A DNA stretch of 64,000 nucleotides from Hyphomonadaceae bacterium (GCA_965229115.1 CBDDIR010000002.1:32410-96409), one strand, 5' to 3'. Counted from the first letter of the stretch, positions 34,102 through 50,329 are shown. Program-made: numbers and translations. Notes: generated by a model from the sequence alone, not told the origin.

Positions 34102-34218
34102 GCTTCGCCCTTTCCTCGTTCCTGCCGGATCGGTCCGGGCAACTGACCGCCCCAGCGCACGACAACATCCCTGCCGCCTCCCGCGATATTGCAAGCTTAG
34201 CGGACGAAGGAGCGGAAG

Positions 34219-34848: not shown

Positions 34849-35015
34849 GGCTTCGCGATCGATGCTGAGCGCATTGGAAGGTCTTTAATGAATTCAAACC
34901 TGGGATAAGCCTGCTGCCAACTGATAGCTGTTGATAAATCGGCAATGTTCTACTTTTGTTCAGGCATAACGGTATCTCACGACCCTCGAACCGCCTAGGT
35001 TGGCACGATTCAGTC

Positions 35016-36746
35016 ATGGAGGCTTATTCGTTGCGGCTATTGAAAAGCTACGCTCCCCAATTTCCCGGCTTCGACCCTCTCGAAGCTGCGGTGGCCCAGT
35101 TGGCAAACGCGGGCATCGAGGAGCGCGGCGCCATCTTCACCCGCCGTGAGGTCGTTGACTTCATTCTTGACCTGTCCGGTTACACGATCGACCGGCCGCT
35201 GCACACTTTCCGTGTGTTGGAACCATCGTTTGGCGACGGCGATTTCCTGTTACCAATTATTGACCGCTTGCTGACATCTTTCCGCGAACACGCCGCTGAA
35301 CAGGATGTCGTCGTGGGCCTGAGAGCAGCGTTGCGTGGCGTGGAACTGCATCGTGTCACATTTGAGATGACCAAGGACCGCGTCATCGATTTGCTGTCCC
35401 AACGAGGAGTGCCTGAGCTGGCAGCACGAAGTCTCGCTGAGGCATGGCTCTCACAGGGTGATTTCCTTCTAGAGGATTTTGATGCGGCCTTTACGCATGT
35501 CCTTGGCAATCCGCCCTACGTGCGGCAGGAACTGATTCCCGACGAGCTCATGGCGGAATATCGTCGTCGCTACGCCACGATCTACGATCGAGCCGATATC
35601 TACGTACCCTTCATCGAGCATTCCCTGAAGCTCCTGGCACCCGGTGGTGCCCTTGGGTTCATCTGCGCCGATCGTTGGATGAAAAACCGCTACGGCACTC
35701 CGTTGCGCAAGATGATCGCCGATCACTACCACCTCAGGGTGTACGTGGATATGATGGATACGCCAGCATTTCATACGGAGGTAAGTGCCTACCCGGCGAT
35801 TTTCATCATCGGTAATGAGCATGGAAAAGCGACGCGTCTGTATCACCGACCCGAAATTTCGCGACCATTTCTAACGTCATTGGCAACTGCCCTTACAACT
35901 CCCGAGACTCCTGTTTTTTCTGGAGTTAGGGAAATACAGGCGTTGGCGCGAGGCGCCGAGCCGTGGGTGTTGGAATCCTTTGACCAACTGGCCGTTGTGC
36001 GCCGACTTGAGGCGTTGTTTCCGACATTGGAAGAAGCCGGTTGCAAGGTCGGTATCGGCGTCGCGACCGGCGCAGACAAGGTTTTCACCGGCGCGTTCGA
36101 TAAGCTTGACGTGGAAGACGACCGCAAGCTGCCGATGGCCATGGCGAAGGACATCCATTCAGGCCGGGTTGAATGGCACGGCAACGGCGTCATCAATCCC
36201 TTTGATGACAATGGCGGGCTTGTGCCACTTGAACGATATCCCCGCCTTGCCCGCTATTTTGAAAAGCATGGCGCGGAGATCAAGAGTCGCCATGTGTCGA
36301 AGAAGAATCCGATTAGCTGGTACCGAACGATCGACCGGATTTATCCGGATCTGACTCACAAGCCAAAGCTGCTGATCCCGGACATCAAGAGCGAAGCGAA
36401 TATTGTTTATGAGCGTGGGAAGCTCTATCCGCATCACAACCTTTACTATATTACATCCGACGACTGGGACATCCAGGCGCTACAGGCTGTTTTGCTGTCA
36501 GGAATTGCCCGTTTGTTCGTCGCCATTTACTCGACGAAGATGCGGGGTGGTTATTTGCGATTCCAGGCACAGTACCTGCGCCGGATCCGCGTGCCGCACT
36601 GGAGGGATGTTCCACTGGAGGTTCGGGAGGAGCTGATCAGTGCTGCGGAGGCGCTGGACATTCAGCGGTGCAATGAAGCGGTCTGTCACCTCTACCAGCT
36701 GAGTGCAGGAGAGCGGCAGGCCATGGGGGGAAATGGGACTTTTTGA
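35016..36746 (+). CDS. Type II N6-adenine DNA methyltransferase (Eco57I/TaqI-like gamma class)
   Basis: Motif I is [12 protein letters not shown] and motif IV is [11 protein letters not shown]. The start was chosen at [10 protein letters not shown] (ATG 35016). The stop overlaps the start region of the downstream endonuclease gene. Confidence 0.8.
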
Positions 36747-36748
36747 GA

Positions 36749-37486
36749 ATGGCGCTTGATTTAGTTGATTACGAAAAGAAGGCCCTTGAGGCTACGATGG
36801 CATTCTGGGGCAATCGGGAGAAGGCACGGCAAAAGCAGATCGAGGCCGGACGCGCTGACCAGGGCGAGCGCGCGGGAGTTACCGCTGGCAAAAACATGGA
36901 TGGCTTCCTCGCCTTGCTCATCGATATCGTGGAGGCGAACGGGCTGACGAACGCCACCATTCATCAACAGCGCGCCGTTCTGACGTTGCCTGGCTACTTC
37001 CGGCCGACCAAGTTGTGGGACGTTCTGGTGGTGCAGGACAAACGACTTGTCGCGGCGATCGAGCTCAAGAGCCAGGTGGGGCCATCTTTTGGCAACAACT
37101 TCAATAACCGCACGGAAGAGGCGATTGGCACGGCGCACGACCTTTGGACGGCCTATCGCGAAGGCGCGTTCGGCAAACATCCACGACCGTTTGTCGGATG
37201 GATGATGATGGTGGAAGACGCGCCGGAATCACGCCGCCCGGTAACCGATCGCTCGCCGCACTTCCCTGTCTTCAAGGAATTTCAAGGTGCGTCTTATCTC
37301 AAGCGCTACGATGTTCTCTGCCAGCGCCTTGTTCAGGAACAGCTCTACGGCGCAGCTGCTCTGTTGACGTCGCCACGGACAGCTGCGGCGACGGGCGAGT
37401 TCCATGAAATGTCCGAGCTTACGAGCCTCAAGACGTTCGTGACGACTCTCGCTGGACACGTGGCGGCAGTCGCCGCTCAAGGCTAA
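36749..37486 (+). CDS. Type II restriction endonuclease, PaeR7I/XhoI-family-like
   Basis: About 245 aa. The segment [16 protein letters not shown]...[32 protein letters not shown] is recognised from memory as the PaeR7I family core. It is coupled to the upstream methylase. Confidence 0.6.
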
Positions 37487-37690: not shown

Positions 37691-38713
37691 TCAGGCCTTC
37701 TTGACGTCTACGGACACTTTCACAACATTATAAAGGGATACGTTTCCACCCGCAGCCTTGCCCGGATCAAACAATGCTAAGTTAAACCCCTCACTGACCG
37801 AGCTACGGTAAATGACGCCGTCGAATCCGCTCCTTTTTATGAATTCGCAAAGGTATTGGCTGGGTATGTAATCGATTGCCGCGCCCTGAGGAAGAACTGG
37901 CCGCGTTAGCTCCTCGCCGAGACGCTCCAGGAAAGGAAGATCAGCTCTAAGCTGGCCGATCTCGCTTGCATCGGAAAGGATAAAAGGAGACACCAGCTTG
38001 CGAGGGTGTCGCAAGTCAACTGCTCGTATGTTCGGAACAAAAAATTCTGCGACGCACGCTACCTCGCCTGTATGAGGACGCACTTCCGAAGCTGCCGTAT
38101 CTGGCAGTGATCCGAGATAGAGATACGGAATGCCAGCAGGGTTCGCTCTGCCATGCGAGGTCCTTCTCTTGGGAGGCGGTCCCATTTTGTCTATCGTGAA
38201 AGTCTCGTCATCTGTCCGGATGCGTGCTCTAAACCATTGCTCCGGCAATTCGGGAGCCAGCAATAAATCGAGCAGTTGACGAAGCCGGGCCTCATCAATG
38301 GTGACGTCTAGAAACCAACGATTCCTATACATCATCTCATCGCGCAACGTCTCCCACTTAGCCAGGCCCTCGCTCACATAGCTCGAAGACGGAACAAAAC
38401 GGTGGCGCACGACATCGCCGTTGTCGAGGATCTCGCCAAGCAGCTCTTTCGCATGGGCTAAGTCCATGGTGTGATGGGTAAAAAGCTCCCAGTCTTCCTT
38501 CATCCACTCGACAAGCGACTTTCCATTTTCTCGCGGCTCGTAGACGTTTACTAAGAGTTCGAACCAGGGCGAAAGCTGATTTGGCTCGACCAACAGAACG
38601 TCATCAGTTCCGCAGAAACTGCACTTTCCCTTGGCTGGGTTCAACGTAGGAAAAATGTCATCGCGAAGACCACGATCGTCAAAGCACTCCGGGCAGCAGT
38701 ATCTCTTCTCCAT
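37691..38713 (-). CDS. RES-domain protein with N-terminal CxxC..CxxC zinc-ribbon module
   Basis: The N-terminus is YCCPECFDD...GKCSFCGTD. The RES triad context is HGRANPAGIPYLYLG (R), AASEVRPH (E) and GVIYRSSVSEGFNLALF (S). The gene starts 8 nt after the upstream stop. Confidence 0.75.
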   Translation of the reverse strand: MEKRYCCPECFDDRGLRDDIFPTLNPAKGKCSFCGTDDVLLVEPNQLSPWFELLVNVYEPRENGKSLVEWMKEDWELFTHHTMDLAHAKELLGEILDNGDVVRHRFVPSSSYVSEGLAKWETLRDEMMYRNRWFLDVTIDEARLRQLLDLLLAPELPEQWFRARIRTDDETFTIDKMGPPPKRRTSHGRANPAGIPYLYLGSLPDTAASEVRPHTGEVACVAEFFVPNIRAVDLRHPRKLVSPFILSDASEIGQLRADLPFLERLGEELTRPVLPQGAAIDYIPSQYLCEFIKRSGFDGVIYRSSVSEGFNLALFDPGKAAGGNVSLYNVVKVSVDVKKA

Positions 38714-38721
38714 GGTCAGGC

Positions 38722-39657
38722 TCAGCCGAGAAACGCCGCCAGAGTTTCGATGTGGTGCTTCATACTCAGCTTTTTGACATAACCAAGTCCCGGGAAGTGC
38801 CCTTTCGCGTATAGGTCTCGGAATTCCGTGATCGCGCTGGTTTCGAGGAGCTTCGAATCCCCGCCTTCGAGTTTTTTGATTAGTTTTGCCAGAGCTTGTC
38901 CGAACTTGCCCGCCGGGTCCGTCGGAGTGCTATTCGTGTCCGAAACGAAATGGTAGATATACATGACATTGTCTTTGTCGGGGTCGATAAACGTAAGGTG
39001 GATTGCCACAGCGTAAGCGGGCCCGCCGCCTTCACTGTAGGCATCGCCGACCGTAAGAAAATCGCCGAACCCAGCCATGCCAAGCTCGCCATATGTGACA
39101 TGAAGGTCTGAGAACTCTTCGACAGGCGGATAGTCTGCATTCTTTTGGCGGTTAAAGCCGTCCCTGATAAGAACACGCTCGCCCGCACTAAAATGCTTCC
39201 AGTAGAGCAGCTTAGAGTGGCTATCGACGAACACGTTGGACATGCCGGGCAGTTCGGCACCGAATGCGGTAGCCAGCGCTTTCGGCTCAGTAAAGCCTGC
39301 GTGGACAAATACCGGATAATGATCAGCATGAGCGTGATAGCACGCAATTGCATCATCGACCGTCATGCTACTGCGCAACAAGATACCCGCAGCAACGGCG
39401 TCGTTACCGATGTATCCCTCTCTGAGCAGTTTCGTGATGTTAGCCCCATCCTCTTGGTGGTCACCATGATAAGGATTGATGATGACGACCGCCTGGCTTC
39501 CAGCATCACTTAGCGCTTTCAGGGCCTTCTCGAGGCCCCCAAGCGCCTCACGCACCGGCTCGATGATCGGAATAAAACCGCTTGATGCCAACAACGGCGC
39601 GGTTTCCCGCAACGTTATGAGTTCAAACTGCTTCCCACGAAAATACGGACGATACAC
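38722..39657 (-). CDS. sce7725 / T4 Beta-protein-like family protein
   Basis: GTG start 2 nt after the upstream stop. The N-terminal (M)YRPYFRGKQFELITLRE is recognised from memory as the sce7725/Beta_protein family signature. 311 aa. Confidence 0.5.
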   Translation of the reverse strand: MYRPYFRGKQFELITLRETAPLLASSGFIPIIEPVREALGGLEKALKALSDAGSQAVVIINPYHGDHQEDGANITKLLREGYIGNDAVAAGILLRSSMTVDDAIACYHAHADHYPVFVHAGFTEPKALATAFGAELPGMSNVFVDSHSKLLYWKHFSAGERVLIRDGFNRQKNADYPPVEEFSDLHVTYGELGMAGFGDFLTVGDAYSEGGGPAYAVAIHLTFIDPDKDNVMYIYHFVSDTNSTPTDPAGKFGQALAKLIKKLEGGDSKLLETSAITEFRDLYAKGHFPGLGYVKKLSMKHHIETLAAFLG

Positions 39658-39659
39658 TC

Positions 39660-40550
39660 TCAGCTCCAGGCCATCGCGATAGAAAGCGGCGTCTCGACGG
39701 CTTCGACCAACTTGATGTGTTCGGAGCGCTTGACGGGAATCGATATTGCCGCAGCCTGCAATGACTCGGGAAGTTGGTCAACAAGTTCAACCAGAGGAGT
39801 TAGGTTTCGAGTCCGCTTTAGTGTTCTAACCATCTCATTGTGAAGTATGCTGGGATCGAGATCGGCGAAAATCGTCCGAAGCGCGCCGTGAAGTTGGGTA
39901 TTCGGCACTTGTGGTATCTCCCGACCTAGCGCCTTAAGAATCGCTGCGGCTTCTGCAGACCGGAGAGATTCAAAAACAGTCTGCGGGCAAACCCTATCCG
40001 GACGATTGACGCCTTCGCGTTCCGTGGAAATTTGGTACCGCTTGGATAGGCATAAGACGCCTGTGTCTTCTGGCACTGCCGCGAGCACCCCCTCCACGTG
40101 ATCTTCGCTCGCAATCACGTTGACCTTCGCGAACACCTTTTTATAGTTCGCGACTTGGTTCGACAGCCTGGCCAACGAGTCCCGCTCAGACTTTATTTCG
40201 TAGACCGTCGCCGTCCCGTTAAGGATAACAAGATCTGCTTTGCAGGTCCCTGCACGGAATTCAGTTAGCATAGAGGCGGTGCGGAGCGAATGCGTGCCCA
40301 TCAAAATCTTATGGCTGATGGCGCTGCGGTAAATGTACTCATTGCGCTGCCCTGATACCCGCAGCACGGCGAATGCACGATCGAATGCGTCACCGACGCT
40401 CGCGCCGGCATCGCACAAACCCGCTAGCCCGACCTCGTCGGCCAATCGCCGGAATAGTCCCGAGCGCCCTTTCTTCGCCATTTCCCGAAAAACGGCTGAT
40501 GAGAATAGGCGCGACAAGACCACTAGCTCTGTTTTGTTGTTTCGTGCCAA
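39660..40550 (-). CDS. PD-(D/E)xK nuclease-fold protein, sce7726-like
   Basis: The core is MLTEFRAGTCKADLVILNGTATVYEIKSERDSLARL (E..D..ExK). The start is uncertain: TTG 40548-40550 with an AGGAAA RBS was chosen, with alternatives GTG 40628 and ATG 40481. Confidence 0.55.
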   Translation of the reverse strand: MARNNKTELVVLSRLFSSAVFREMAKKGRSGLFRRLADEVGLAGLCDAGASVGDAFDRAFAVLRVSGQRNEYIYRSAISHKILMGTHSLRTASMLTEFRAGTCKADLVILNGTATVYEIKSERDSLARLSNQVANYKKVFAKVNVIASEDHVEGVLAAVPEDTGVLCLSKRYQISTEREGVNRPDRVCPQTVFESLRSAEAAAILKALGREIPQVPNTQLHGALRTIFADLDPSILHNEMVRTLKRTRNLTPLVELVDQLPESLQAAAISIPVKRSEHIKLVEAVETPLSIAMAWS

Positions 40551-40967
40551 TTCCGATTTCCTAGAGCGGCGCAATGGGTGACATTGTACAAGCCGCGCCC
40601 CTTCGGCGATATCGCCAAAATAGCGCACCTGAGATTTAATATGCCGCAGTTGGGATCAACCCGATGGCCAATCAAGACAGGCAACCGTGATCTCGGAATT
40701 GGCAACACGAAGCGCAGGCTTTGGGTAACTATGGCGAACAAAATCGGGGCCCCGAGGCCTTAACCTCGCCGGTAGGCCAAACGGGTTGCTTACTTTCGTT
40801 GATAAAGTAGTCGAACCTTCGGTTGAGATCTTGTCCATCGCCGAGAACACTCTAACGTGGCGGGATGAACTGTGGCCGTGTCGGCAGAACGACGCCGCGG
40901 CGCTGGTTGATTGATTTATATGACTTCGGCCTGGCAGGTATTGGCCCAGGATGTAAGCAGGATCGAG

Positions 40968-42047
40968 ATGACGTTTTTTCAGCAGAAGATCGAAAAGTGG
41001 CTGTTCAGAGAGGTCCCTGAGCGCGCGGTATCGCAGCCCTACGATCTTCCTGCGGTGGTGTTGACGACGGATGTCGGATTACAGCGGACCGAAAACCAGG
41101 ATCGCGTGGCCGCGTTTTCAATAGACGGCCCGAATGGAGATCGGCTTAAAGTCGTCGCGGTAGTCGATGGTATGGGAGGTATGCGTGATGGAGCAAAATG
41201 CGCCACGCTCGCTCTGACCAGCTTCTTTACTGGGCTCGCATCGTCTCGCGGTCACATCCAACAAAGAGCATATCGGGCGATATCGCTCGCCAACGACACC
41301 GTCTTCAAGTTCGCCGGCGGAAAGGGGGGCGCAACGCTTTCCGCTATTGTTATGGATAGCCGGGGGACGGCATACATCGTCCATCTCGGCGACAGTAGAG
41401 TGTACAGCTTCGGACACAACTCACGCGTCGAACGTCTTACGAAAGATGACTCGCTGGCCGAGGCCGTTGGCGGACATGGCCGAGAGCTCCTTCAGTTCGT
41501 CGGAATGGGTCCGGAAATGCAGCCCTTCCTGAGCGAGGTCCCAAAAGAAACGAGGAATCTAGCTATCACAAGTGATGGCATTCATTTCATTGAGGCGCCG
41601 ACACTGCAGAGTGTGCTTCTCAACTCGTCAACTATCCGAAGCGCCGCCGAGCGACTCGCCGCCTTAGCGCGCTGGTGCGGCGGGCCCGACAACGCTTCTG
41701 GCGCATTCATAGACCTGCCGTTGCTTGCCCAGGAAATACATTCACCATCGTTAGTTAGCGCTCAGATTTGGGACCCATTCGGTAGTCTCAGTTTTAATAT
41801 GGAACCGGACGATCCCGGTGAATTGAGCAATTTCCACCAAAAGCCACTGCAAAATTTCGAGGGCGAAAACGAAGCAAAAAGTCCGCACCTTGACGACAAA
41901 AAATCGCCCCGCGATCCCCAGGTTCAGCGCGGCACGAAAAAGAATACTAAGCGGAAGAAAAAAGAAAGTGTCCCCAAACAGGACATACAGCTCGAAATAA
42001 AAATTGAGGGGAACTCGGGGGAAGAGAACGGTGATAATCGCCAATAG
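40968..42047 (+). CDS. PP2C-family Ser/Thr phosphatase
   Basis: Motifs are RTENQDR, VVDGMGGM, HLGDSRVY, ITSDGI and GGPDNAS, followed by a Lys-rich C-terminal tail. The start was chosen at ATG 40968 (AGGA RBS). The track ORF starts at 40911. Confidence 0.8.
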   Translation: MTFFQQKIEKWLFREVPERAVSQPYDLPAVVLTTDVGLQRTENQDRVAAFSIDGPNGDRLKVVAVVDGMGGMRDGAKCATLALTSFFTGLASSRGHIQQRAYRAISLANDTVFKFAGGKGGATLSAIVMDSRGTAYIVHLGDSRVYSFGHNSRVERLTKDDSLAEAVGGHGRELLQFVGMGPEMQPFLSEVPKETRNLAITSDGIHFIEAPTLQSVLLNSSTIRSAAERLAALARWCGGPDNASGAFIDLPLLAQEIHSPSLVSAQIWDPFGSLSFNMEPDDPGELSNFHQKPLQNFEGENEAKSPHLDDKKSPRDPQVQRGTKKNTKRKKKESVPKQDIQLEIKIEGNSGEENGDNRQ

Positions 42048-43080
42048 GTACCAGCCGACAGGAAATACCGACGCGGGGGGCATGGGAGAAATCTTGGAAT
42101 GCGTCGACCTTCACCTGAAACGGCGGGTGATCGTGAAACGATTACAGCTGGGCATTGACGAAAGACGCTTGCTCGATGAGCAAAAAGCGCTGGCTAAAGT
42201 GCGGTCCAAGCATGTTGTGCAACTCCACGACATTGTAGAGCTCGGTTCGGGCAAAAAATCAGAAAAAGCGATCGTGCTTGAGTACATCGACGGCAATAAT
42301 CTCGCCATCGGTGCGTTCGCACCCGATCGCACCTACCTCGGTGTAATTTGGCAGATCGCTTGCGGATTGCGAGATATCCATGACGCGGGAGTCATTCACC
42401 GCGATATCAAACCTAACAATATCCGTCTCGATAAAGAAGGCGTGGTCAAGATCATTGATTTTGGACTCGCCCGCTCACGAGACGAGGCGAAGACACGAGG
42501 GGTGGTTGGCACCCCAGTTTTTATGGCGCCAGAGCTTTGGGGCAGCGACACGGTGAGCTTCAACAATTCAATAGACGTCTACGCATTCGGTGTGACCGCC
42601 CTCGCCCTACTGAACCAGAGGGTTCCGACAGAACTCGGAAGCATGCCGCCCAAACCAGTGTCTGTCCCCGCGCTGATCAGCGCCTTTCCGAAAATACCCA
42701 ATGAGATCATGGCCGTCCTCGTTTCTTGCCTTGACCATGCACCATCTCGCCGTCCGACGATGGCGACAGTTCAGAAAATAATCGAACGCCGGCTGCTCGA
42801 GAACGAGCATCGCGCACTTGTAGTGATGGATGGGAACATACACCATCTTGATAGTAAAAGACGCAAAATAACACTTAATGCCGGCTCCGTTGGATCGATA
42901 GCTATCGAATACAATGGCTACGAATTTGTTATTGTAACCGTAAGCGGCAGTGTCTTCATTAATAACACCGTAGCAAAGACAGGAACTTCGATGCCAGGTT
43001 GCTGTGTGATTACATTCGGAACCGGATCGAACAGACGGTTCGTCACTTTTGACGTCTCACATCCAGAGGTTATGCCATGA
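42031..43080 (+). CDS. Ser/Thr protein kinase with FHA-like C-terminal domain
   Basis: GTG 42031 overlaps the phosphatase stop. The Gly loop is TDAGGMGEI, with VIHRDIKPNNI, IIDFGLA and FMAPE. The C-terminal SGSVFINNTVAKTGTSMPGCCVITFG..RFVTFDV resembles a degenerate FHA beta-sandwich (weak). Confidence 0.8.
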   Translation: MIIANRYQPTGNTDAGGMGEILECVDLHLKRRVIVKRLQLGIDERRLLDEQKALAKVRSKHVVQLHDIVELGSGKKSEKAIVLEYIDGNNLAIGAFAPDRTYLGVIWQIACGLRDIHDAGVIHRDIKPNNIRLDKEGVVKIIDFGLARSRDEAKTRGVVGTPVFMAPELWGSDTVSFNNSIDVYAFGVTALALLNQRVPTELGSMPPKPVSVPALISAFPKIPNEIMAVLVSCLDHAPSRRPTMATVQKIIERRLLENEHRALVVMDGNIHHLDSKRRKITLNAGSVGSIAIEYNGYEFVIVTVSGSVFINNTVAKTGTSMPGCCVITFGTGSNRRFVTFDVSHPEVMP

Positions 43081-44147
43081 ACGTGGGGGACGAGATTTCA
43101 AACCGATATCGGGTTACAGACACGATTGGTAGCGGCGGCATGCAGGACGTTTACCTAGCCGAGGACCAACTACTTGGCGTTGACGTCGCGCTTAAGACGC
43201 CTCAGCCTGGACAACAGAACAAGCGCTTCTCCCAAAGTGCAATCATAGCTGCCAAAGTTAACCACCATAATGTTGCAAAGACGCTTGATTACGTCGAGGA
43301 AAATGGGCGGCTTTATCTTATTGAAGAGTATGTGCCCGGCGAAACGTTGGACCATAAACTGAACCGTTTTGGCGCGGTGGATCCCCATCTGGCAGCAAGA
43401 GTTTTTCATCACCTCTCTAAAGGCGTGGCGGCATCCCATCACGCCGGCGTTGTGCATCGTGATCTCAAACCGAGCAACGTGATTGCTGAACCTGGCGTCA
43501 ATCTGCACCATTTAAAAATCACTGATTTCGGAATTGCCACGCTGACCGCTGAGGTCTTTGCTGACGCTGCGAAAGATGGCGACCTAACCCGATCGACGTC
43601 GGGAACCATCAGGGGCGCGCTACCCTTCATGGCGCCTGAAATGATGTTTCGTGCCCCCGGCGACCATCCCGGCCCAGAAGCGGACATTTGGTCCCTCGGG
43701 GCGATGATGTTCAAAGTTATGACCGGTATCTATCCGTTTGGTGTCTACCTCCAAGCCGCGGTAAATGTGCAAACCCGCAATCGTGCTCCATGGCCAAGCT
43801 TTATGACAATCAACGCCCAATACAAGCCTCTCGCCATAGAATTGCAGTCGATCGTTGAGGCGTGCCTTTCATATGACCCTGAAGACCGACCAACAGCCGA
43901 CGATCTCGTTCGTCAAATTTCCGGAGTTTGCTACATCAATGTTCATCGAAGTGAAGGGGTGATCAATAATCTTATTCAGAACGGATACAGTGGCTTTATA
44001 GATGAAGGTGCTGATCCCGTCTTTTTTAGCATGGAGAGCGTGTACGGAGAACGGCGTCCGGCGGTCCGAAGCAACAATCGCGTATGCTATTCGAAGTTTC
44101 CCGGCTCTCCAAGACACCGGGGTCATCCTATTGTAGTTATCGACTAA
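43077..44147 (+). CDS. Ser/Thr protein kinase with cold-shock/OB-like C-terminal domain
   Basis: It makes an ATGA overlap with the upstream kinase. Motifs are IGSGGMQDVY, VALK, VVHRDLKPSNV, ITDFGIA and FMAPE. The C-terminal EGVINNLIQNGYSGFIDEGADPVFFSMESV resembles a CSD (GxVKxFxxxKGFGFIxxxxxDVFxH). Confidence 0.85.
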   Translation: MNVGDEISNRYRVTDTIGSGGMQDVYLAEDQLLGVDVALKTPQPGQQNKRFSQSAIIAAKVNHHNVAKTLDYVEENGRLYLIEEYVPGETLDHKLNRFGAVDPHLAARVFHHLSKGVAASHHAGVVHRDLKPSNVIAEPGVNLHHLKITDFGIATLTAEVFADAAKDGDLTRSTSGTIRGALPFMAPEMMFRAPGDHPGPEADIWSLGAMMFKVMTGIYPFGVYLQAAVNVQTRNRAPWPSFMTINAQYKPLAIELQSIVEACLSYDPEDRPTADDLVRQISGVCYINVHRSEGVINNLIQNGYSGFIDEGADPVFFSMESVYGERRPAVRSNNRVCYSKFPGSPRHRGHPIVVID

Positions 44148-44218: not shown

Positions 44219-45172
44219 CTATGCTACGTCCCTTCGCCCAGCTGTTTCACTTTTAGGCTGCCAGAATTTAACCCAAACTAAGAGGCGACTCATCCAATAG
44301 GTTGAACGACGGCGTGGCAATTCAGTCTCTACCTTCGGAAATTCATCTTTGACGAGATCGACAAGTTGCCGAACATCGAACTTAGGGTCACCTACGGCGG
44401 TGGACGGATAATGAGGGCATGGCTTATCTGCTCTCCTGCGAAAACGCTCGGATGCCACCATTGTACCTTCGTTCGCGTCATAGGCAAAATATGCTGACCG
44501 CGCCGGCTTTCCGTGCCATGGCGTAAACAATTGAACAAGCAAACCGACGGCCGCAGAGGCTAGGACTCCGTTGGGCCACACGACCTGGGGTTTGCTGCCT
44601 GCCTCTCCGTATCGACCTGCCTCGTCAGCTAGAGCATTGTCAGTCACGATCCCAAGGCAGCGTAGGCAGGGAGCGCCGGGGGAAGACAGCACAACTTGTC
44701 CTGCAACCAGAAACTCATCACGCTCACCGAGACGATGCACGTCCATTCCCATGTCAATGTAAGGGATCAGGAAACGCCGGCAGAATGCTTCGAGTTCGCT
44801 CTTGGCAATGATGCGGTCAACACCGCCAACGACGATGTCACAAATCCGGAGCTTGTCTGCAACCTCTTGCCATTTAGCCTTGTGGCAGGATACGCGGGCA
44901 TTTGGATTGACGCTCATGATCACGCGTTTGGATATTTCTGTTTTAGCACGTCCTTCGGCGACATCTGCCCACGTTCCGCCAACCAGCCGATTGAGGTTGC
45001 TATCGGAGATCACGTCGTCATCGATGAGGACAAACCCGCCAATACCCAGATGTGCCAACTGCTGAACGACATGCGAATTGCCGCCGCCAAGGCCAACAAG
45101 ACCCACAGTTAGATCGTTGAGATTTTGAGTGCTATCTTCTCCCAGGAAGCTCTGCCGATCCTGCCAAGTCAT
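44219..45172 (-). CDS. bilD: ThiF/E1-like adenylyltransferase (Bil-like system E1)
   Basis: The Rossmann/E1 signature is VGLVGLGGGNSHVVQQLAHLGIGGFVLIDDDVISDSNLNRL, plus a CLRC motif. It is the last gene of a four-gene ATGA-coupled operon. Confidence 0.7.
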   Translation of the reverse strand: MTWQDRQSFLGEDSTQNLNDLTVGLVGLGGGNSHVVQQLAHLGIGGFVLIDDDVISDSNLNRLVGGTWADVAEGRAKTEISKRVIMSVNPNARVSCHKAKWQEVADKLRICDIVVGGVDRIIAKSELEAFCRRFLIPYIDMGMDVHRLGERDEFLVAGQVVLSSPGAPCLRCLGIVTDNALADEAGRYGEAGSKPQVVWPNGVLASAAVGLLVQLFTPWHGKPARSAYFAYDANEGTMVASERFRRRADKPCPHYPSTAVGDPKFDVRQLVDLVKDEFPKVETELPRRRSTYWMSRLLVWVKFWQPKSETAGRRDVA

Positions 45173-45678
45173 GAGGCGCTCCAGTCTGCCCGAATAGGAG
45201 CAGAAATTCTCTTGAAGGAAGTGATCGGCATCGCCGGACGATCTCCTGCCGTCCAGAGCAATCCGTGAACGGAATCGTCGCTCAGCACGAGAAGGCCATG
45301 GGGCATCCGTGGCGCAGTCTCGAAAAACCCTGGCACAAACGTCACAGCGCTATCCAAGTCAATGCGGCTAAAGCCAGGGCGACCGTGGCCGCCGTGGGTG
45401 TGGACATGAAGAAGGGAGCTCGGCGGCCGATAGCTGGCTTGTGCAGCCTTTCTCATTGCATTCGAGCCGATCTGAGCGCCGACCTTCGGATGCCGCTCAT
45501 AATCCTCGTCTTCCACGGCCTGATATCCGCGGACTAGCAACATGATCCCACCTTGCCCGTCGGAAGCTGCTGCAGCGATTAGAAATCCAACCCGCTCATG
45601 AGCGAATGGATGGGGGCGATGGAGATCCGCTCGAACTTTATCGAGAAGATCTCCATTGATTTTCAGACAGACATTCAT
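45169..45678 (-). CDS. bilC: JAB/MPN metalloprotease (Bil-like system deubiquitinase-type)
   Basis: The JAMM motif is LLHVHTHGGHGRPGFSRIDL (HxH...SxxD), with an upstream Glu in FAHERVGFL. Confidence 0.7.
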   Translation of the reverse strand: MNVCLKINGDLLDKVRADLHRPHPFAHERVGFLIAAAASDGQGGIMLLVRGYQAVEDEDYERHPKVGAQIGSNAMRKAAQASYRPPSSLLHVHTHGGHGRPGFSRIDLDSAVTFVPGFFETAPRMPHGLLVLSDDSVHGLLWTAGDRPAMPITSFKRISAPIRADWSAS

Positions 45679-46007
45679 TGCAGAGGCCCCAGATGCGCGG
45701 CGAGAATTTCATCCCATCCCAACGACGCCGCGACACCGTTCCATGACATGGCGTGCCAAGTGGTTCCCGCGACGGTATGCGTCGTCCAGTTTTGCCCGCG
45801 ATTGAGGAAGGGTTTGTCGAGAAACAAGCGTGTGGAATATCCGCTATGATAGCCCAGCATAAGAAGAGCATCGACGGCAACGCGGCCACCCGCATGCTTG
45901 ATCTTGAGCCCTGGCAGGAAGACAGCCGGCTGGCCGCCCTCCTGCCAAAGTTCGGCTTTGGGGCAGATTTTGCGGAGCTTCTGTAGTTCGATCGTAGGGC
46001 TACTCAT
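45675..46007 (-). CDS. bilB: Prokaryotic E2/UBC-like protein (divergent)
   Basis: 110 aa, positioned between the multi-Ubl and JAB genes. LPGLKI..LLMLGYHSGYSTRLFLDKP...WHAMSWNG loosely resembles the Prok-E2 family that accompanies multi-ubiquitin genes. It has only one Cys, at residue 15. Confidence 0.45.
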   Translation of the reverse strand: MSSPTIELQKLRKICPKAELWQEGGQPAVFLPGLKIKHAGGRVAVDALLMLGYHSGYSTRLFLDKPFLNRGQNWTTHTVAGTTWHAMSWNGVAASLGWDEILAAHLGPLQ

Positions 46008-46708
46008 GACGACTGCCCTACCGGAGGATGCGAGGAGAATTCCATGCCTTCCCGAACTTTGATCACTTCGCCAGGCTTCAGTTCATTGAATTCACCGTCG
46101 GCGCCGATCAGATCGAGCTTGTAGCCGGCGGGAACCGAAAAGGCCGCCAACAATTCCTCGGTCGTCCACTTGCGGCGTTCGAGCTCGAAGGCGTTTTCCT
46201 TATAATAGACCGTGACGGTCTTTTTCGCCTTGCGAAGCTTAAAGCGCTCGACGGTGCGGGGCGACAAATCGACGATATCCTCATCATCGAACTCGATATC
46301 GCCGTCGTCCGTGTCCAGGAAAAGGGTCAGGTCCTGCCCCGCGTTCGCCAAGAACTTAATGTGCTTGGCGGCAAGCAAATCCTGTGGCCACTCCATTGAG
46401 CGACCTTCCACGGTGAAGCGGTTATTGCTCGGCCCCTTCACGACAAAGAAGCGTTCGACACCGGGATCGGTCAAATCCACCGCCTCGGTCGGTCGGATCG
46501 ATTCGAGTTCGCCGCTCTTCAAATGACAAAGAATGGCGAAGTCCTCAAGCGGATACGCGTTGGCGATTTCGCCGACCTGCGCACCGACGATTTTGGCGTC
46601 CGCGATGTGCTCCGTCCGGAAATCGAACGTTTCGTCGCTCCACTCAAACGCGAACTGCTTTTCCTTGCTCGTGGCTGCTGCCTCGACTTCTATTTCAGAG
46701 ATCCGCAT
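46004..46708 (-). CDS. bilA: Multi-ubiquitin (tandem beta-grasp) protein
   Basis: Start MRISEIEVE (ATG 46706-46708, AAGGA RBS). Three ~70-aa internal repeats each end in a ..VDL....VERF.. type pattern (AVDLTDPGVERFFV / IVDLSPRTVERFKL / third repeat ..KPGEVIKVREGMEF). The C-terminus is PPVGQSS. Confidence 0.6.
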   Translation of the reverse strand: MRISEIEVEAAATSKEKQFAFEWSDETFDFRTEHIADAKIVGAQVGEIANAYPLEDFAILCHLKSGELESIRPTEAVDLTDPGVERFFVVKGPSNNRFTVEGRSMEWPQDLLAAKHIKFLANAGQDLTLFLDTDDGDIEFDDEDIVDLSPRTVERFKLRKAKKTVTVYYKENAFELERRKWTTEELLAAFSVPAGYKLDLIGADGEFNELKPGEVIKVREGMEFSSHPPVGQSS

Positions 46709-46784
46709 CTCTTTGGTCCTTTCACTGATCGAGCTCTCTGCCCGCATCAATATGGAACAGTAGAATCGCATTCTCGTCAATACC

Positions 46785-46810
46785 ACAAACATTTATTTCT
46801 GATTGTTTGT
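46785..46810. promoter_or_regulatory. Inverted repeat in the divergent Bil / XRE promoter region (candidate operator)
   Basis: ACAAACA (46785-46791) - 12 nt - TGTTTGT (46804-46810). TTGACA lies at 46837-46842 upstream of the XRE gene. Confidence 0.3.
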
Positions 46811-46872
46811 ATTAAGCACATTCAATGTCAGCCCTATTGACAATCTTCGCGAACAGTTGTTGCTTTGTTCAC

Positions 46873-47199
46873 ATGTCCGATATGGAAATTTACCGAATTC
46901 TCGGATTGGCTGTTGCCAAGCGCCGAAACGAACTGGGACTCACCCAAGCCGACGTGGCTGGGCGGATTGATCTGACGCGAGCATCGTTGGCGAATATTGA
47001 GACGGGCCGGCAGAAAGTTCTTCTCCACCAGCTCTACAGGCTGGCAAACGCCCTCGAAATTAAGTCGATAACCGATCTCGTTCCAGGATCGTTTCAGTTC
47101 GCCGAGAACTCGGAACCGGTTCAATTTGAGGGGAGCGATGTCAATGACCGCGAGCGCGCGCAGCTGGAGCACTTTGTCCGAACACTCGGGTCCCGTTAG
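46873..47199 (+). CDS. XRE-family HTH regulator (CapH-like)
   Basis: The segment LGLAVAKRRNELGLTQADVAGRIDLTRASLANIETGRQ is a classic Cro/C1 HTH. The start was chosen at ATG 46873 (or 46882). Confidence 0.8.
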   Translation: MSDMEIYRILGLAVAKRRNELGLTQADVAGRIDLTRASLANIETGRQKVLLHQLYRLANALEIKSITDLVPGSFQFAENSEPVQFEGSDVNDRERAQLEHFVRTLGSR

Positions 47200-47201
47200 T
47201 C

Positions 47202-47711
47202 ATGGCCAATAAGCAGACAGCTCGGGAGCGCGCCATAGAGATACTGGCGCGGTTCAACGTGCGGAGCGCGCCAGTTCCTGTGGAACGGATCGTCCGAAGC
47301 ATGGGGATTACCGTCCAATATGCCCCGTTCGATGGCGACTTGTCCGGCATGGCGTTCATCAAAGATGGCAAAAAGATTATCGGAGTGAACTCGTTGCATA
47401 GCGCAACACGCCAACGCTTCACGATTGCCCATGAACTCGCCCATTTCGTGCTTCACGAAGAGCGACTGGAATCGAAGGTTCACGTCGACAAAGGCGTTCT
47501 TAGGCGCGATACCCTAGCTTCCGAGGGTACGGACGCTGTGGAAATTGAAGCAAACAATTTCGCTGCCGAGCTTCTTATGCCGAAGGCAGTTTTGACCGAG
47601 ACGCTCGGCGGAAAGAACTTTGATTTGGAGGACGAAGAAGCCATCACCTCTGTTGCCAAGAAATTCAAGGTTAGCCCTGTAGCGCTCCAATATCGCTTAC
47701 AGCAGCTATAA
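47202..47711 (+). CDS. ImmA/IrrE-family zinc metallopeptidase (CapP-like)
   Basis: 169 aa with the HEXXH motif FTIAHELAHFVLH and a downstream EANNFAAELLMP. It starts 2 nt after the XRE stop. Confidence 0.8.
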   Translation: MANKQTARERAIEILARFNVRSAPVPVERIVRSMGITVQYAPFDGDLSGMAFIKDGKKIIGVNSLHSATRQRFTIAHELAHFVLHEERLESKVHVDKGVLRRDTLASEGTDAVEIEANNFAAELLMPKAVLTETLGGKNFDLEDEEAITSVAKKFKVSPVALQYRLQQL

Positions 47712-47724
47712 TGGCAGGCGCGGC

Positions 47725-49107
47725 GTGGGGTTCGTTGTCTACGATTTGGAAACGAGCGGACTCCACAAGCGTTTTGATCAAATTCTGCAGTTCGCGGCCA
47801 TACATACCGACGACGAGCTGGAGCCGATAGATACCCCTCTGCACATTCGAGCCCGACTTCTTCCGAGCATTCTGCCGTCCCCGAAGGCGTTGCTCATTAC
47901 GGGTCTTACTATCGAGGAGATCATAGACCCCACCGTACCGTCACTTTACAACGCGGTTTGCGAAATTCATGAGGCTTTTCTCCGGTGGAGCCCCTCCATG
48001 TATCTGGGATTCAACTCCATACGTTTCGACGAGGAGTTCCTTCGCCAGGCGTTCTATCAAAACTTACGGCACCCGATTTACGTCACGAGTATCAATAACA
48101 ATCGTGGTGACGTCTTAAGGCTTGCTCGCGCCGTCGCGCTCCTCAACCCCGGCGCTCTCACAATACCTCTAACCCCCGAGGGCCGGCGATCTTTTCGGCT
48201 ATCAGATATCGGCCAAGCAAACGCCATTCATTTCGACCGGAGCCACGATGCCCTCTCTGACGCGCAGACGACCCTAGCGCTGTGCCGACTTATCCGAGAT
48301 CGCGCTCCCGACGCGTGGTCGAGCTTCTCCAGGTTCGCAAACCGCCGGAATGTAGTGGAGTTTGTTCAAGAGGAGGAAGCTTTCGCACTCTTGGACGATC
48401 GGGCCGACAGTGACTTCGTCTGCGTCACGCTCGTTAGCAAACATCCGACCGACCGGAACTTACACTATTGCCTCGATTTGGCGACGGATATGGATTCGCT
48501 GGGTCGGCTTTCGAACGAAGAGCTTTGTGCCGAGGTAAGTCGCCGTGACGGACCAATCCGAAAGTTGCGGGCGAATGCATCTCCCATCATGGCCCAACTC
48601 TGGGAACTGGAAGACCAAAGTCTGCTGCCCGCGCCTTCCCAAGACATTGAGCGCGTGGCTCAGAGAGTTCGTTCTGACGAGGAGTTTTTGCAAAGGTTGT
48701 CGACCGCAATCCAGGCAAGCCAACCGGTCTGGCCGACCTCTGAGCACGTCGAAGAGCAAATCTACGAAGACTTCATCGGTGATGCAGACGGAGCACTATG
48801 TCAGCAATTTCATCTCGCACAGTGGCCGGAGCGCCCGAACTTCATCGGTAGGTTCGGAGATCGGCGACTGCAACGGCTCGCACAACGGCTGCTTCTGCAC
48901 GAGCGGCCCGACCTACTAGATCAGCACCGCCAATCAGCACTCCTTGTCGAGGTCCAACGAAGGCTGGATGGATCGATCACCGACGCGCCATGGACCACAC
49001 TGCCAAAAGTGGAAGCCGAGATCCAAGCTCTGTCAGCCGAATGTTCCGAACGCGATCGACGCATACTGGACGGTTTCAGCAAGTATTTAGCCAACCGGTT
49101 TCCTTAG
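47725..49107 (+). CDS. Exodeoxyribonuclease I (SbcB)-family 3'-5' ssDNA exonuclease
   Basis: 460 aa. VVYDLETSGL, LGFNSIRFDEEFLRQAFYQN and HDALSDAQTT are the DEDDh motifs. Collinear similarity to E. coli ExoI includes QIYEDFIGDADGA (ExoI: QLYNGFFSDADRA). It starts 13 nt after the immA-like stop. Confidence 0.8.
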   Translation: MGFVVYDLETSGLHKRFDQILQFAAIHTDDELEPIDTPLHIRARLLPSILPSPKALLITGLTIEEIIDPTVPSLYNAVCEIHEAFLRWSPSMYLGFNSIRFDEEFLRQAFYQNLRHPIYVTSINNNRGDVLRLARAVALLNPGALTIPLTPEGRRSFRLSDIGQANAIHFDRSHDALSDAQTTLALCRLIRDRAPDAWSSFSRFANRRNVVEFVQEEEAFALLDDRADSDFVCVTLVSKHPTDRNLHYCLDLATDMDSLGRLSNEELCAEVSRRDGPIRKLRANASPIMAQLWELEDQSLLPAPSQDIERVAQRVRSDEEFLQRLSTAIQASQPVWPTSEHVEEQIYEDFIGDADGALCQQFHLAQWPERPNFIGRFGDRRLQRLAQRLLLHERPDLLDQHRQSALLVEVQRRLDGSITDAPWTTLPKVEAEIQALSAECSERDRRILDGFSKYLANRFP

Positions 49108-49151: not shown

Positions 49152-50216
49152 TCAGAGCACCCCCCACGCCCGAAACCTCCCCCTCCCCGTCATCTCGCGC
49201 AAGCCGAGCTCTCCGATGATCCGGAGCGCCGCTTGCGGCGTCATCTCCAGGGTATTGGCCACCATGCCGGCCGACACCAGCGGCCGGCCCATGACCAGCT
49301 CGACGAGCTCCGGCAGCTTCGACGATGTCCGTCGCCCTGCGAGCTTCCGCTCCATCATTGTTCGAGCGAGCGCCAGCCGGTCATGCTCCTTCAGTCCAAT
49401 CTCGGCCGCCGCGATCAGTCCGCCAGCAATGGCCGCCAGCCTCGTCTGCCTCTCGCGATGGCAGCGCCGATCGACGGGAATGGTTTTCAGGCCGAGATTG
49501 ACGGCGGCGAGATGCGCCGAGGTCGTGACGCCGGCCTGCCGCAGGATCGAGGCTGCGAGCAATCGGCCGAGCCAGGACGCATGCTGCAGCACTGACAGTT
49601 CGTTCCAGGCATCGAGGGCGACGATCGCCTGCAGAACTGCCGGCAAGTCCTGCGCATCCATGAGCACGCCCTTCCACTCTTCCAGCCGCGCGTCCTCGTC
49701 CCAGTCGAGATCGTAGACAATTGGATCCTTCTCGCGACCAGCGGCACGGACAGGACGCTTTGCCTCCTCGATCGCCGCCTCTGAGCGTGCCAGCACCGCA
49801 TCGATGGCGGCGAACTCGGCGTCGAGCGCATTGGCATCGTCAACGTCCTCCGTCCCCTCCCGTTTCCCGTCTACCTCTTCGTTGAACTCGCTGCTGGTCG
49901 CCGCGTCGTTCTCGGGGGCGGTAATCGCACGGCCGGCGATCCCGGCACCTCGCACGCTGCGGAGGCCGTCGGTCGACAGTGCCCAGCCTGGGGGATACGC
50001 TGCAATCCGCCGCCTTGTACGCAATACATCGCGGGCGATCGTCAGCTCGTGGGTCGGCGCGCGAATATCTTTCGTGGCGTCGTGGAGAACGAGGTCTTCG
50101 AGATGGACAAGTTCGCCGTCGATCCAAAGTGAAGCGCAGGCATCGGCGAAATGCATGCGTTCGATCCAGCCTTCTCCGACCGGAGAGCGGGCGATGCGCT
50201 CGTCGAGACGGGTCAT
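49152..50216 (-). CDS. RHE_PE00001-family-like plasmid protein (DUF1612 + C-terminal HTH)
   Basis: 354-aa [49 protein letters not shown]... It is recognised from memory as the family found next to repABC regions in Rhizobium plasmids. Confidence 0.5.
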
Positions 50217-50329
50217 GGCGATGGCTGTGGCTTTTACTTCCAGATTTCAATCCGGGGAATGTCATACGCCAGTTTGGTTCTGGCGCTAAACTGGAGACGA
50301 TTTTCAGCTAATGATTTCAGCGAGGCCCT

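What the first reader, a model, noticed from the sequence alone, without database searches (positions are those of the whole stretch)
40911..44147. PP2C phosphatase + two Ser/Thr kinases with different C-terminal sensor-like domains, coupled in one operon inside the defence island
Seen: the phosphatase stop overlaps the kinase-1 GTG (42031-42047), and kinase 1 and kinase 2 share an ATGA overlap (43077-43080). Both kinases keep HRDxKPxN, DFG and APE motifs, so they are probably active. Kinase 1 ends in an FHA-like segment (SGSVFINNTV..CCVITFG..RFVTFDV, lacking the canonical GR/SxxH). Kinase 2 ends in a cold-shock/OB-like segment (GVINNLIQNGYSGFIDEGADPVFFSMESV). The phosphatase has a Lys-rich tail.
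Established: a PP2C + STK pair accompanies TerY (vWA) in the TerY-P triad, which was reported as an anti-phage system.
Inference: here no vWA/TerY gene is present and a second kinase takes its place. The nucleic-acid-binding-type and phosphopeptide-binding-type appendages suggest an infection-sensing phospho-signalling module. It is divergently transcribed from the RES operon across a 340-bp shared region, so the two may act together.
Basis: partly seen in the sequence, partly recalled or inferred. Interest (0 to 1): 0.7.

Follow-up and report, generated by a model that had tools for sequence, protein, structure and literature searches.

The report
Known KKP kinase-kinase-phosphatase defence module
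The three genes are an ordinary member of the published KKP toxin-antitoxin and anti-phage module (a PP2C phosphatase that restrains two jointly toxic Ser/Thr kinases), here carried in a defence island on a rhizobial repABC plasmid.

Summary
Three co-directional, overlapping genes encode a PP2C phosphatase, a Ser/Thr kinase with an FHA-like tail, and a Ser/Thr kinase with a cold-shock-domain tail. AlphaFold2 plus Foldseek confirm both tail folds, which Pfam does not detect.

The system is not new. It is the KKP (kinase-kinase-phosphatase) module of Guo et al., Nat Commun 2024 (PMC11341870). That module has the same gene order (pfpC, pfkB with FHA, pfkA with CSD), the same gene sizes and the same GFI motif. 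The window kinases are 44% and 49% identical over their full length to the characterised PfkB and PfkA of P. aeruginosa MPAO1. In 52 of 54 species-representative genomes with enough flank, the trio travels as a self-contained cassette.

In the literature the two kinases are jointly toxic and the phosphatase is the antitoxin. Phage or prophage replication proteins inhibit or destabilise the phosphatase, and the kinases then arrest the cell.

Neighbours differ in every locus examined except one closely related Rhizobium element. One small correction: the phosphatase probably starts at ATG 40968, not TTG 40911.

Interest is low and the system is already known.

The parts
40629..40967 (.). Intergenic region between the divergent sce7726-sce7725-RES operon and the KKP operon; presumed promoter region
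   Evidence: ORF map and sequence. The sigma-70 consensus scan found no site, which says little for an alphaproteobacterium.
40968..42047 (+). PfpC-like PP2C Ser/Thr phosphatase, the antitoxin; 359 aa from ATG 40968 (the longest ORF begins at TTG 40911)
   Evidence: Pfam PP2C_2 E 9e-8 and NCBIfam Stp1-type PP2C E 5e-24. Metal-binding motifs NQD 43-45, DGMGG 67-71, GDSR 141-144, SDG 202-204 and DNAS 241-244 are present. It is 34-48% identical to the first gene of KKP trios elsewhere, and homologues align from window residue about 20.
41808..42047 (+). Lys-rich, poorly conserved C-terminal tail of the phosphatase, ending in a conserved QL(E/D)IxI motif; overlaps the kinase-1 ribosome-binding site and start
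   Evidence: Alignment of 7 homologues and composition. The C-terminal ~44 aa of PfpC are reported as disordered and dispensable for neutralising the kinases (PMC12328805).
42031..43080 (+). PfkB-like Ser/Thr kinase (349 aa, GTG start) with a C-terminal FHA-like domain
   Evidence: Pkinase E 4e-37. Identical to public protein P0001. 44% identical over the full length to PfkB of MPAO1, E 2e-90. K36, E50, HRD, DFG and APE are present.
42793..43077 (+). FHA-like beta-sandwich tail of kinase 1
   Evidence: AlphaFold2 pLDDT 83.6 with 8 strands. Most Foldseek matches, including the first 15, are FHA domains: Rad53 FHA1, Ki67, CEP170, EmbR (probability ~1.0, TM 0.6-0.66, E 0.03-0.3). No Pfam or PDB sequence hit. 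The canonical GR...SxxH residues are not conserved.
43077..44147 (+). PfkA-like Ser/Thr kinase (356 aa) with a C-terminal cold-shock domain
   Evidence: Pkinase E 2e-42. 49% identical over the full length to PfkA of MPAO1, E 1e-110. 59-71% identical to homologues in alpha-, beta- and gammaproteobacteria. K40, HRD, DFG and APE are present.
43908..44144 (+). Modelled segment of kinase 2 (residues 278-356); its strands (residues about 292-356) form the cold-shock (OB-fold) tail
   Evidence: AlphaFold2 pLDDT 85.8. The 50 best Foldseek matches listed are all cold-shock domains: Bc-Csp, CspB, CspA, YB-1, Unr (E down to 1.3e-4, TM to target 0.7-0.77). Weak PADLOC hit to a cold-shock-like OB model, E 0.004.
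43992..44000 (+). GFI motif (G306 F307 I308) of the cold-shock domain
   Evidence: G306 and F307 are invariant in 25 homologues. Mutating the GFI/GFA motif abolishes toxicity and defence in published KKP modules (PMC11341870).

Best explanation
The locus is a KKP (kinase-kinase-phosphatase) module: pfpC-like PP2C, then a pfkB-like kinase with an FHA tail, then a pfkA-like kinase with a CSD tail, translationally coupled in one operon.

Shown here: membership by gene order, gene size, motifs, predicted folds and full-length homology to the characterised proteins; and behaviour as a self-contained mobile cassette.

Inferred from published experiments on homologues:
- The two kinases associate through their N-terminal domains and through their FHA and CSD tails.
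- Only together do they autophosphorylate and phosphorylate many essential host proteins (replication, translation, division), which arrests growth.
- The PP2C phosphatase reverses this and so acts as an antitoxin of a type VII-like tripartite toxin-antitoxin system.
- During infection a phage replication protein binds and inhibits the phosphatase (T4 Gp59) or triggers its degradation (Pf4 RepG4). Kinase activity is then unopposed, the cell stops growing, and phage yield drops in an abortive-infection-like way.

On this repABC plasmid the same logic would also favour retention of the plasmid.
For: Architecture:
- Order PP2C, Pkinase, Pkinase on one strand, with genes of 1080-1137, 1050 and 1071 bp and overlaps of 17 and 4 nt. 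This meets the paper's operational definition.

Homology:
- Kinase 2 against PfkA_MP: 49% identity over 356 aa, E 1e-110, including the CSD and GFI motif.
- Kinase 1 against PfkB_MP: 44% identity, E 2e-90, including the FHA construct.
- The reference sequences came from the paper's supplement.

Folds: FHA and CSD.

Catalytic motifs are intact in all three proteins.

Cassette behaviour:
- 52 of 54 species-representative loci with enough flank carry the same trio in the same order.
- Contexts vary: an E. coli P4-like satellite between psu and int, a Klebsiella Peduoviridae phage, a P. aeruginosa chromosome, Methylocystis, Pseudomonas and a metagenome, and Agrobacterium plasmids.
- The paper's catalogue already lists Rhizobium leguminosarum and Sinorhizobium meliloti.

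Mechanism: PMC11341870; PMC12328805.
Against: - No experiment exists on this locus or on any rhizobial KKP. Toxicity, neutralisation and defence are extrapolated from homologues that are 44-49% (PfkB_MP, PfkA_MP) identical.
- About 90% of published KKP modules lie in prophages. This one lies in a plasmid defence island with no phage genes nearby, so the prophage-control role described for Pf6 may not apply.
- Pfam CSD and FHA models do not detect the tails. The type proteins behave almost the same way: the PfkB_MP tail gets no FHA hit, and the PfkA_MP CSD scores 19.6 bits, below the cut-off.
- The FHA-like tail lacks the canonical phosphothreonine-binding residues.
- The phage trigger in rhizobia is unknown.
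Confidence: 0.9

Rival explanations
1. The trio serves mainly as a plasmid-addiction (post-segregational killing) module for the repABC plasmid, with phage defence secondary or absent. If the phosphatase is the less stable partner, plasmid loss would leave the kinases unopposed.
For: The window carries repA, repB and repC (56279-59947) and further partition genes. KKP is a bona fide tripartite toxin-antitoxin system, and PfpC is degraded in cell lysates. KKP also occurs on Agrobacterium plasmids.
Against: All five KKP modules tested in the literature protected against lytic phages. The neighbours here are defence genes: an XhoI restriction-modification pair, a RES operon, a ubiquitin-like operon, and CBASS or Abi_2 in the sister element. 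This reading is compatible with the main explanation rather than exclusive of it.
Confidence: 0.15
2. One reading: KKP and the divergently transcribed sce7726-sce7725-RES operon form one combined defence system that shares a regulatory region.
For: The two operons are divergent across about 340 bp. Both lie within one colinear 6.4-kb stretch (window 37693-44147) that is 85% identical in nucleotide sequence in Rhizobium sp. CFBP 8762.
Against: No other locus of the 65 surveyed, nor any of the 7 others examined separately, has RES, sce7725 or sce7726 next to KKP. In the plasmid collection only the KKP part of the 10-kb region finds a match. Published KKP modules work as three cloned genes. The single co-occurrence is in a close relative, so it is not independent evidence.
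Confidence: 0.05
3. The trio is a TerY-P-type or housekeeping Ser/Thr signalling pair, such as T6SS PpkA/PppA/Fha-like or cell-envelope regulation, that happens to sit in an island.
For: PP2C plus Hanks-type kinase plus FHA is the parts list of TerY-P and of T6SS threonine-phosphorylation pathways. The best NCBIfam matches are Stp1-type and PknB-type models. That parts-list resemblance rests on established knowledge, not on a test made here.
Against: No vWA/TerY gene and no T6SS genes are in the window. The kinases have no transmembrane, PASTA or other sensor segment. The NCBIfam scores are far below the family cut-offs (85 against 230; 119-165 against 450). The cassette moves between phages, satellites and plasmids.
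Confidence: 0.03

Closest known systems
KKP module (PfpC-PfkB-PfkA) of Pseudomonas aeruginosa MPAO1 prophage Pf6, with homologues in Shewanella, Vibrio, E. coli and Salmonella prophages (Guo et al., Nat Commun 2024, PMC11341870)
   Same: Same gene order, strand and gene sizes. PP2C catalytic motifs are present. Both kinases have the GGM, HRD and DFG motifs. The middle kinase has an FHA-like tail and the last kinase has a CSD tail with the GFI motif. Identity to PfkB_MP and PfkA_MP is 44% and 49% over the full length. The phosphatase has a disordered C-terminal tail. The module sits on a mobile element beside other defence genes.
   Different: It lies on a repABC plasmid island next to a TniA/TniB/TniQ module rather than in a prophage; the paper places only about 10% of KKP modules outside prophages. 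There is no resident filamentous prophage to regulate. This instance is untested.
TerY-P (TerY vWA protein + PP2C phosphatase + Ser/Thr kinase; reported as anti-phage by Gao et al. 2020; the name and attribution are from my own knowledge, and the term occurs in papers found)
   Same: A PP2C phosphatase and a Hanks-type kinase in one defence-island operon.
   Different: There is no vWA/TerY gene. There are two kinases with FHA and CSD tails. No PADLOC TerY-P model appeared among the matches shown for these proteins.
Single-gene kinase defences: PD-T4-6, Staphylococcus Stk2 and MADS Mad6
   Same: Hanks-type kinase domains. PADLOC PD-T4-6 and mad6 models match the kinase domains at E 1e-38 to 1e-53. 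All act by phosphorylating host proteins on infection.
   Different: Those matches cover only the generic kinase domain. The NCBIfam MAD6 score is 98-102 against a cut-off of 460. Those systems have one kinase, no phosphatase antitoxin and no FHA or CSD tails.

Membership tests
KKP (kinase-kinase-phosphatase) module | Three neighbouring genes in the order PP2C (PF13672), Pkinase (PF00069), Pkinase on one strand | tested here: met
   ORFs and Pfam hits. The definition is in the paper's methods.
KKP (kinase-kinase-phosphatase) module | Each gene between 900 and 1300 bp | tested here: met
   1080 bp (1137 for the longest ORF), 1050 bp and 1071 bp.
KKP (kinase-kinase-phosphatase) module | Last kinase (PfkA type) carries a C-terminal cold-shock domain with a GFI/GFA motif | tested here: met
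   The CSD fold is supported by AlphaFold2 and Foldseek. G306-F307-I308 are present. The tail aligns to the PfkA_MP CSD. Pfam PF00313 itself gives no hit, and it is below threshold even for PfkA_MP.
KKP (kinase-kinase-phosphatase) module | Middle kinase (PfkB type) carries a C-terminal FHA domain | tested here: met
   The fold search returns mostly FHA domains, though with modest E-values of 0.03-0.3. The tail aligns to the His-FHA construct of PfkB_MP. Pfam PF00498 hits neither this tail nor PfkB_MP.
KKP (kinase-kinase-phosphatase) module | Sequence homology to the experimentally characterised PfkA and PfkB | tested here: met
   49% identity (E 1e-110) and 44% identity (E 2e-90) over the full length. 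The phosphatase is 34-48% identical to the first gene of other trios.
KKP (kinase-kinase-phosphatase) module | Catalytic motifs needed for function: GGM, HRD and DFG in both kinases, and PP2C metal-binding aspartates | tested here: met
KKP (kinase-kinase-phosphatase) module | The two kinases are jointly toxic, the phosphatase neutralises them, and the module protects against lytic phage | not testable with these tools
   Known only from experiments on homologues.
Canonical FHA domain (phosphothreonine-binding) | Conserved Gly-Arg, Ser-x-x-His and Asn residues that bind phosphothreonine (established knowledge, e.g. Rad53 FHA1 R70, S85, H88, N107) | tested here: not met
   In 26 homologues no Ser or His is invariant or nearly invariant between tail residues 24 and 52, and there is no Gly-Arg pair. 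Only R24 (nearly invariant) and N57-N58 could correspond to canonical residues. The fold is FHA-like, but canonical phosphopeptide binding is doubtful.
TerY-P | A TerY (vWA-domain) gene adjacent to the PP2C and kinase genes | tested here: not met
   No vWA domain in any neighbouring gene.
PD-T4-6 / Mad6 / PknB-Stk1 equivalogs | Score above the curated family cut-off, and a single-kinase architecture | tested here: not met
   NCBIfam MAD6 scores 98-102 bits against a 460 cut-off, and PknB_PASTA scores 119-165 against 450. The PADLOC hits cover the kinase domain only.

The most novel reading that the evidence does not exclude
This plasmid has no prophage for KKP to control. The module might still do more than defend. 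By analogy with PfkA/PfkB phosphorylating the H-NS-like silencer MvaU, the rhizobial kinases could phosphorylate a host xenogeneic silencer or a plasmid replication or partition protein. That would tune expression or maintenance of the plasmid island. They could also be co-regulated with the divergent sce7726-sce7725-RES operon, which is linked to KKP in the two related Rhizobium elements. Nothing found here tests this. The comparative data argue against an obligate link to the RES operon.
Probability: 0.08. Interest if true: 0.45.

Novelty: already known. Interest (0 to 1): 0.15.

Why it matters
The locus can be annotated with confidence as a KKP toxin-antitoxin and anti-phage module instead of three generic "kinase" and "phosphatase" genes. 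It is an example of the minority of KKP modules that sit outside prophages, here on a rhizobial repABC plasmid in a swappable defence island. It does not open a new question. Its practical use is for annotation: Pfam and PADLOC 2.0 do not recognise the system or its two tail domains.

Tried and rejected
- Pfam at E<=10 on the two kinase tails, the phosphatase tail and the phosphatase N-terminus gave nothing.
- HMMER profiles of the two tails against all PDB sequences gave nothing for the CSD tail and only chance-level ribosomal uS19 hits (E 0.2) for the FHA tail. The fold assignments therefore rest on structure prediction.
- PADLOC gave only generic kinase models, a weak PDC-M21C hit for the phosphatase (E 0.001) and a weak cold-shock-like hit (E 0.004). 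PADLOC 2.0 returned no KKP-named match.
- I tested whether the P. aeruginosa trio in L005 is the MPAO1 module by looking for the published phosphosites. Only one of five residues matched, so it is a different KKP allele. I then recovered the real PfkA_MP and PfkB_MP sequences from the paper's supplement.
- A distant DNA search of E. coli genomes matched only 400 bp of kinase 2, but it led to a P4-satellite KKP.
- The sigma-70 promoter scan of the intergenic region found no site.
- A profile of the CSD tail against 1.84 billion representative proteins found only 52 clusters. These are about 352-368-aa (one of 404 aa) proteins or shorter ones, most with the match at the extreme C-terminus, and four long repetitive proteins with short multi-stretch matches that I did not follow. 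No clear alternative architecture was found.
- I considered the idea that the invariant Ser replacing the alpha-C Glu in PfkA-type kinases is the switch through which PfkB activates PfkA. I judged it unlikely. Published single-kinase HRD or DFG mutants remain toxic, and the reported PfkA phosphosites are T34, S37 and T271.
Full report
**Observation**

The window has three + strand ORFs at 40911-42047, 42004/42031-43080 and 43077-44147. The sequence shows the phosphatase stop (TAG 42045-42047) 17 nt downstream of a GTG at 42031, which is preceded by GGGGGAAGAG. It also shows an ATGA junction at 43077-43080. The GTG start yields a 349-aa protein identical to a gene product called in public assemblies (P0001).

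Pfam assigns PP2C_2 to the first protein and Pkinase to the other two. The Lys, HRD, DFG and APE motifs of both kinases and the five aspartate-containing PP2C motifs are present. In pairwise BLASTP, 4 of the 6 phosphatase homologues start opposite window residue 20-23, where an ATG (40968) follows an AGGA. The phosphatase therefore probably starts 57 nt later than the finding says.

**The two tails**

Neither kinase tail, nor the phosphatase tail, matches any Pfam model even at E<=10. HMMER profiles of the tails find nothing meaningful among PDB sequences.

I built alignments of the tails from homologues (A1 and A2) and predicted their structures.
- The kinase-1 tail folds with pLDDT 83.6 into an eight-strand beta-sandwich. 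Most of its Foldseek matches, including the first 15, are FHA domains (Rad53 FHA1, Ki67, CEP170, EmbR, YscD/PscD), with probability about 1.0 and TM 0.6-0.66 but modest E-values.
- The kinase-2 tail folds with pLDDT 85.8. Its 50 best listed matches are all cold-shock domains, with E down to 1.3e-4 and TM to target 0.7-0.77.

**What it is**

A literature search found Guo et al. 2024 (PMC11341870). That paper describes the KKP module: phosphatase PfpC, followed by kinase PfkB with an FHA tail and kinase PfkA with a cold-shock domain carrying a GFI/GFA motif. The paper's search definition is PP2C, then Pkinase, then Pkinase in that order, each gene 900-1300 bp. The window meets this definition.

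The window kinase 2 has G306-F307-I308, with G and F invariant in the family.

I recovered the PfkA_MP and PfkB_MP protein sequences from the paper's supplementary tables. They are machine-read and contain small errors.
- Window kinase 2 is 49% identical to PfkA_MP over 356 residues (E 1e-110), including the CSD.
- Window kinase 1 is 44% identical to PfkB_MP (E 2e-90), including the FHA construct.

The type proteins are no more visible to Pfam than the window proteins. The PfkB_MP FHA tail gets no FHA hit, and the PfkA_MP CSD scores 19.6 bits against a cut-off of 27. The absence of Pfam hits is therefore not a departure from the family.

**Cassette behaviour and context**

Both kinases have hundreds of full-length homologues across Proteobacteria. 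Kinase 2 is 65-79% identical to homologues in Klebsiella, Xanthomonas, Pseudomonas, Cupriavidus and Burkholderia.

The same trio, in the same order, is found in the following places:
- Methylocystis rosea, next to a RelE/HTH pair and ParB/Toprim genes.
- A Pseudomonas, inside a type II secretion gene cluster.
- A metagenomic contig, next to HTH-M78 genes.
- A P. aeruginosa chromosome.
- A Klebsiella Peduoviridae phage.
- An E. coli P4-like satellite, between psu and the integrase at tRNA-Leu.
- Agrobacterium plasmids.

In a scan of species-representative genomes, 52 of 54 loci with enough upstream sequence carry the complete trio in order. None of the window's other genes (RES, sce7725, sce7726, E1, JAB, multi-ubiquitin, XhoI, methylase, exonuclease) recurs next to KKP, with one exception. 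In Rhizobium sp. CFBP 8762, a colinear stretch covering the RES operon and KKP is 85% identical in nucleotide sequence.

The paper's catalogue already lists Rhizobium leguminosarum bv. viciae TOM and Sinorhizobium meliloti Rm41.

A profile of the CSD tail finds only 52 representative clusters in 1.84 billion proteins. They are about 352-368-aa (one of 404 aa) proteins or shorter ones, most with the match at their C-terminus. This fits the paper's view that the CSD-kinase fusion is specific to KKP.

**Where it sits**

The window is part of a repABC plasmid: RepC at 56279-57523, RepB at 57680-58675 and RepA at 58760-59947, all on the minus strand. The low-GC stretch from about 30-48 kb is a defence island containing:
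- an Eco57I-type methylase plus XhoI endonuclease;
- the sce7726-sce7725-RES operon;
- KKP;
- a multi-ubiquitin/JAMM/E1 operon;
- an XRE plus M78 regulator pair and an exonuclease.

The island is bounded by a large serine recombinase on one side and by RHE_PE00001 plus TniA/TniB/TniQ on the other. In the sister Rhizobium element the ubiquitin-like slot holds a CBASS and the restriction-modification slot holds an Abi_2 gene. In Agrobacterium pAtK224c, KKP plus an ABC-three-component system lie at the same side of the RHE_PE00001-Tni module. This KKP belongs to the roughly 10% that the paper places outside prophages.

**Mechanism**

What follows is inferred from experiments on homologues, not shown here.
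- PfkA and PfkB are toxic only together. Toxicity is lost only when HRD or DFG is mutated in both kinases, or when the CSD, the GFI motif or the FHA tail is removed.
- The kinases co-purify, and they phosphorylate themselves and many essential host proteins.
- PfpC catalytic activity neutralises them.
- Five KKP modules protect against lytic phages.
- T4 Gp59 binds and partly inhibits PfpC, and the Gp59 G32E mutation, found in T4 escape mutants, abolishes triggering and PfpC binding.
- Pf4 RepG4 triggers degradation of PfpC. The disordered C-terminal ~44 residues of PfpC are not needed for neutralisation. That region corresponds to the Lys-rich tail noticed here.

By homology, the window trio is therefore a phosphorylation-based tripartite toxin-antitoxin and abortive-infection module. 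The phosphatase is the guarded component, and the tails serve kinase-kinase cooperation rather than direct sensing of infection.

**Rival explanations**

- A plasmid-addiction role is compatible with the main explanation and plausible.
- A functional unit with the RES operon, a TerY-P variant, and a housekeeping Ser/Thr pathway are each contradicted by the comparative data and by the absence of vWA or T6SS genes.

**Verdict**

However, the system was published in 2022 as a preprint and in 2024 as a paper, with follow-up papers in 2025 and 2026. It is already known, and this copy is an ordinary, untested member in a plasmid context.

Noticed in passing
window 44219-46792 (- strand) and 46825-49107 (+ strand): A convergent neighbour operon encodes a Multi_ubiq protein (PF14452, 46004-46792), a 110-aa protein (possibly E2-like, with no family hit), a 169-aa protein with a JAMM-type HxH...SxxD motif (HVHTHGGHGRPGFSRID) and a ThiF-type E1 (44219-45172). 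It is transcribed divergently from an XRE HTH gene, an M78/ImmA-like metallopeptidase (AHELAH) and an exonuclease. In the sister element L009 the same slot holds a CBASS (SMODS cyclase plus HNH-SAVED) with its own XRE plus M78 pair.
   Followed up: partly
window 37691-40628 (- strand): A three-gene operon encodes an sce7726-family protein, an sce7725-family protein (NCBIfam E 4e-103) and a 340-aa RES-domain protein with a Cys-rich N-terminus. It has no assigned function. sce7726 weakly matches the PADLOC model 'cll' (E 3e-18). It lies within one colinear stretch with KKP that is 85% identical in nucleotide sequence in Rhizobium sp. CFBP 8762 (L009 2633-9071).
   Followed up: partly
window 49152-53897; L008 14050-18209: An RHE_PE00001-family gene (DUF1612 plus HTH_13) followed by TniA (Mu-transposase C/rve), TniB and TniQ flanks the defence island. 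In Agrobacterium pAtK224c the same module flanks a different cargo: KKP plus an ABC-three-component system. This suggests a hot spot for swappable defence cargo next to a Tn5053/Tn402-like transposition module.
   Followed up: partly
window 43224-43238 (kinase 2 residues 50-54, RFSQS): In PfkA-type kinases the alpha-C glutamate, which normally pairs with the catalytic lysine, is replaced by an invariant serine. This is S54 here and RFRRS in PfkA_MP, judged by alignment with S. aureus PknB 4eqm. Kinase 1 keeps the glutamate (E50). Published mutants suggest PfkA is nevertheless active.
   Followed up: partly
window 41766-41783 and 41988-42008: Beyond the PP2C catalytic domain, the phosphatase family conserves an (I/V)WDxxG motif. 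After a non-conserved Lys-rich linker it conserves a terminal QL(E/D)IxI motif just upstream of the kinase-1 start. It is unclear whether the latter reflects a protein function or constraints from the overlapping ribosome-binding site.
   Followed up: no
window 34956-37486: An Eco57I/TaqI-type N6 DNA methylase (596 aa) is followed, with a 4-nt overlap, by an XhoI-family restriction endonuclease (Pfam E 5e-101). This is a type II restriction-modification pair. The sister element L009 has an Abi_2 gene on that side instead.
   Followed up: partly
window 20468-25597 (- strand): A 1709-aa ORF combines an Eco57I-type methylase region with SNF2/ResIII helicase domains. It is next to a DUF3991-Toprim gene (26861-27823).
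   Followed up: no
window 29615-34194 and 56279-59947: Plasmid backbone: repA, repB and repC at 56279-59947, and a second pair of RepB/ParB-like genes (30697-32530) beside a 555-aa large serine recombinase (32527-34194) and an RNase T-type exonuclease (29615-30655). GC content falls from about 0.62 to 0.52-0.58 between about 30 and 48 kb.
   Followed up: no
window 1665-1755: ARAGORN calls a 91-nt tRNA-Arg (TCG). This is unusually long for a tRNA-Arg, and it lies inside a 422-aa mechanical ORF (667-1935). It may be a false call or an intron-containing or degenerate gene.
   Followed up: no
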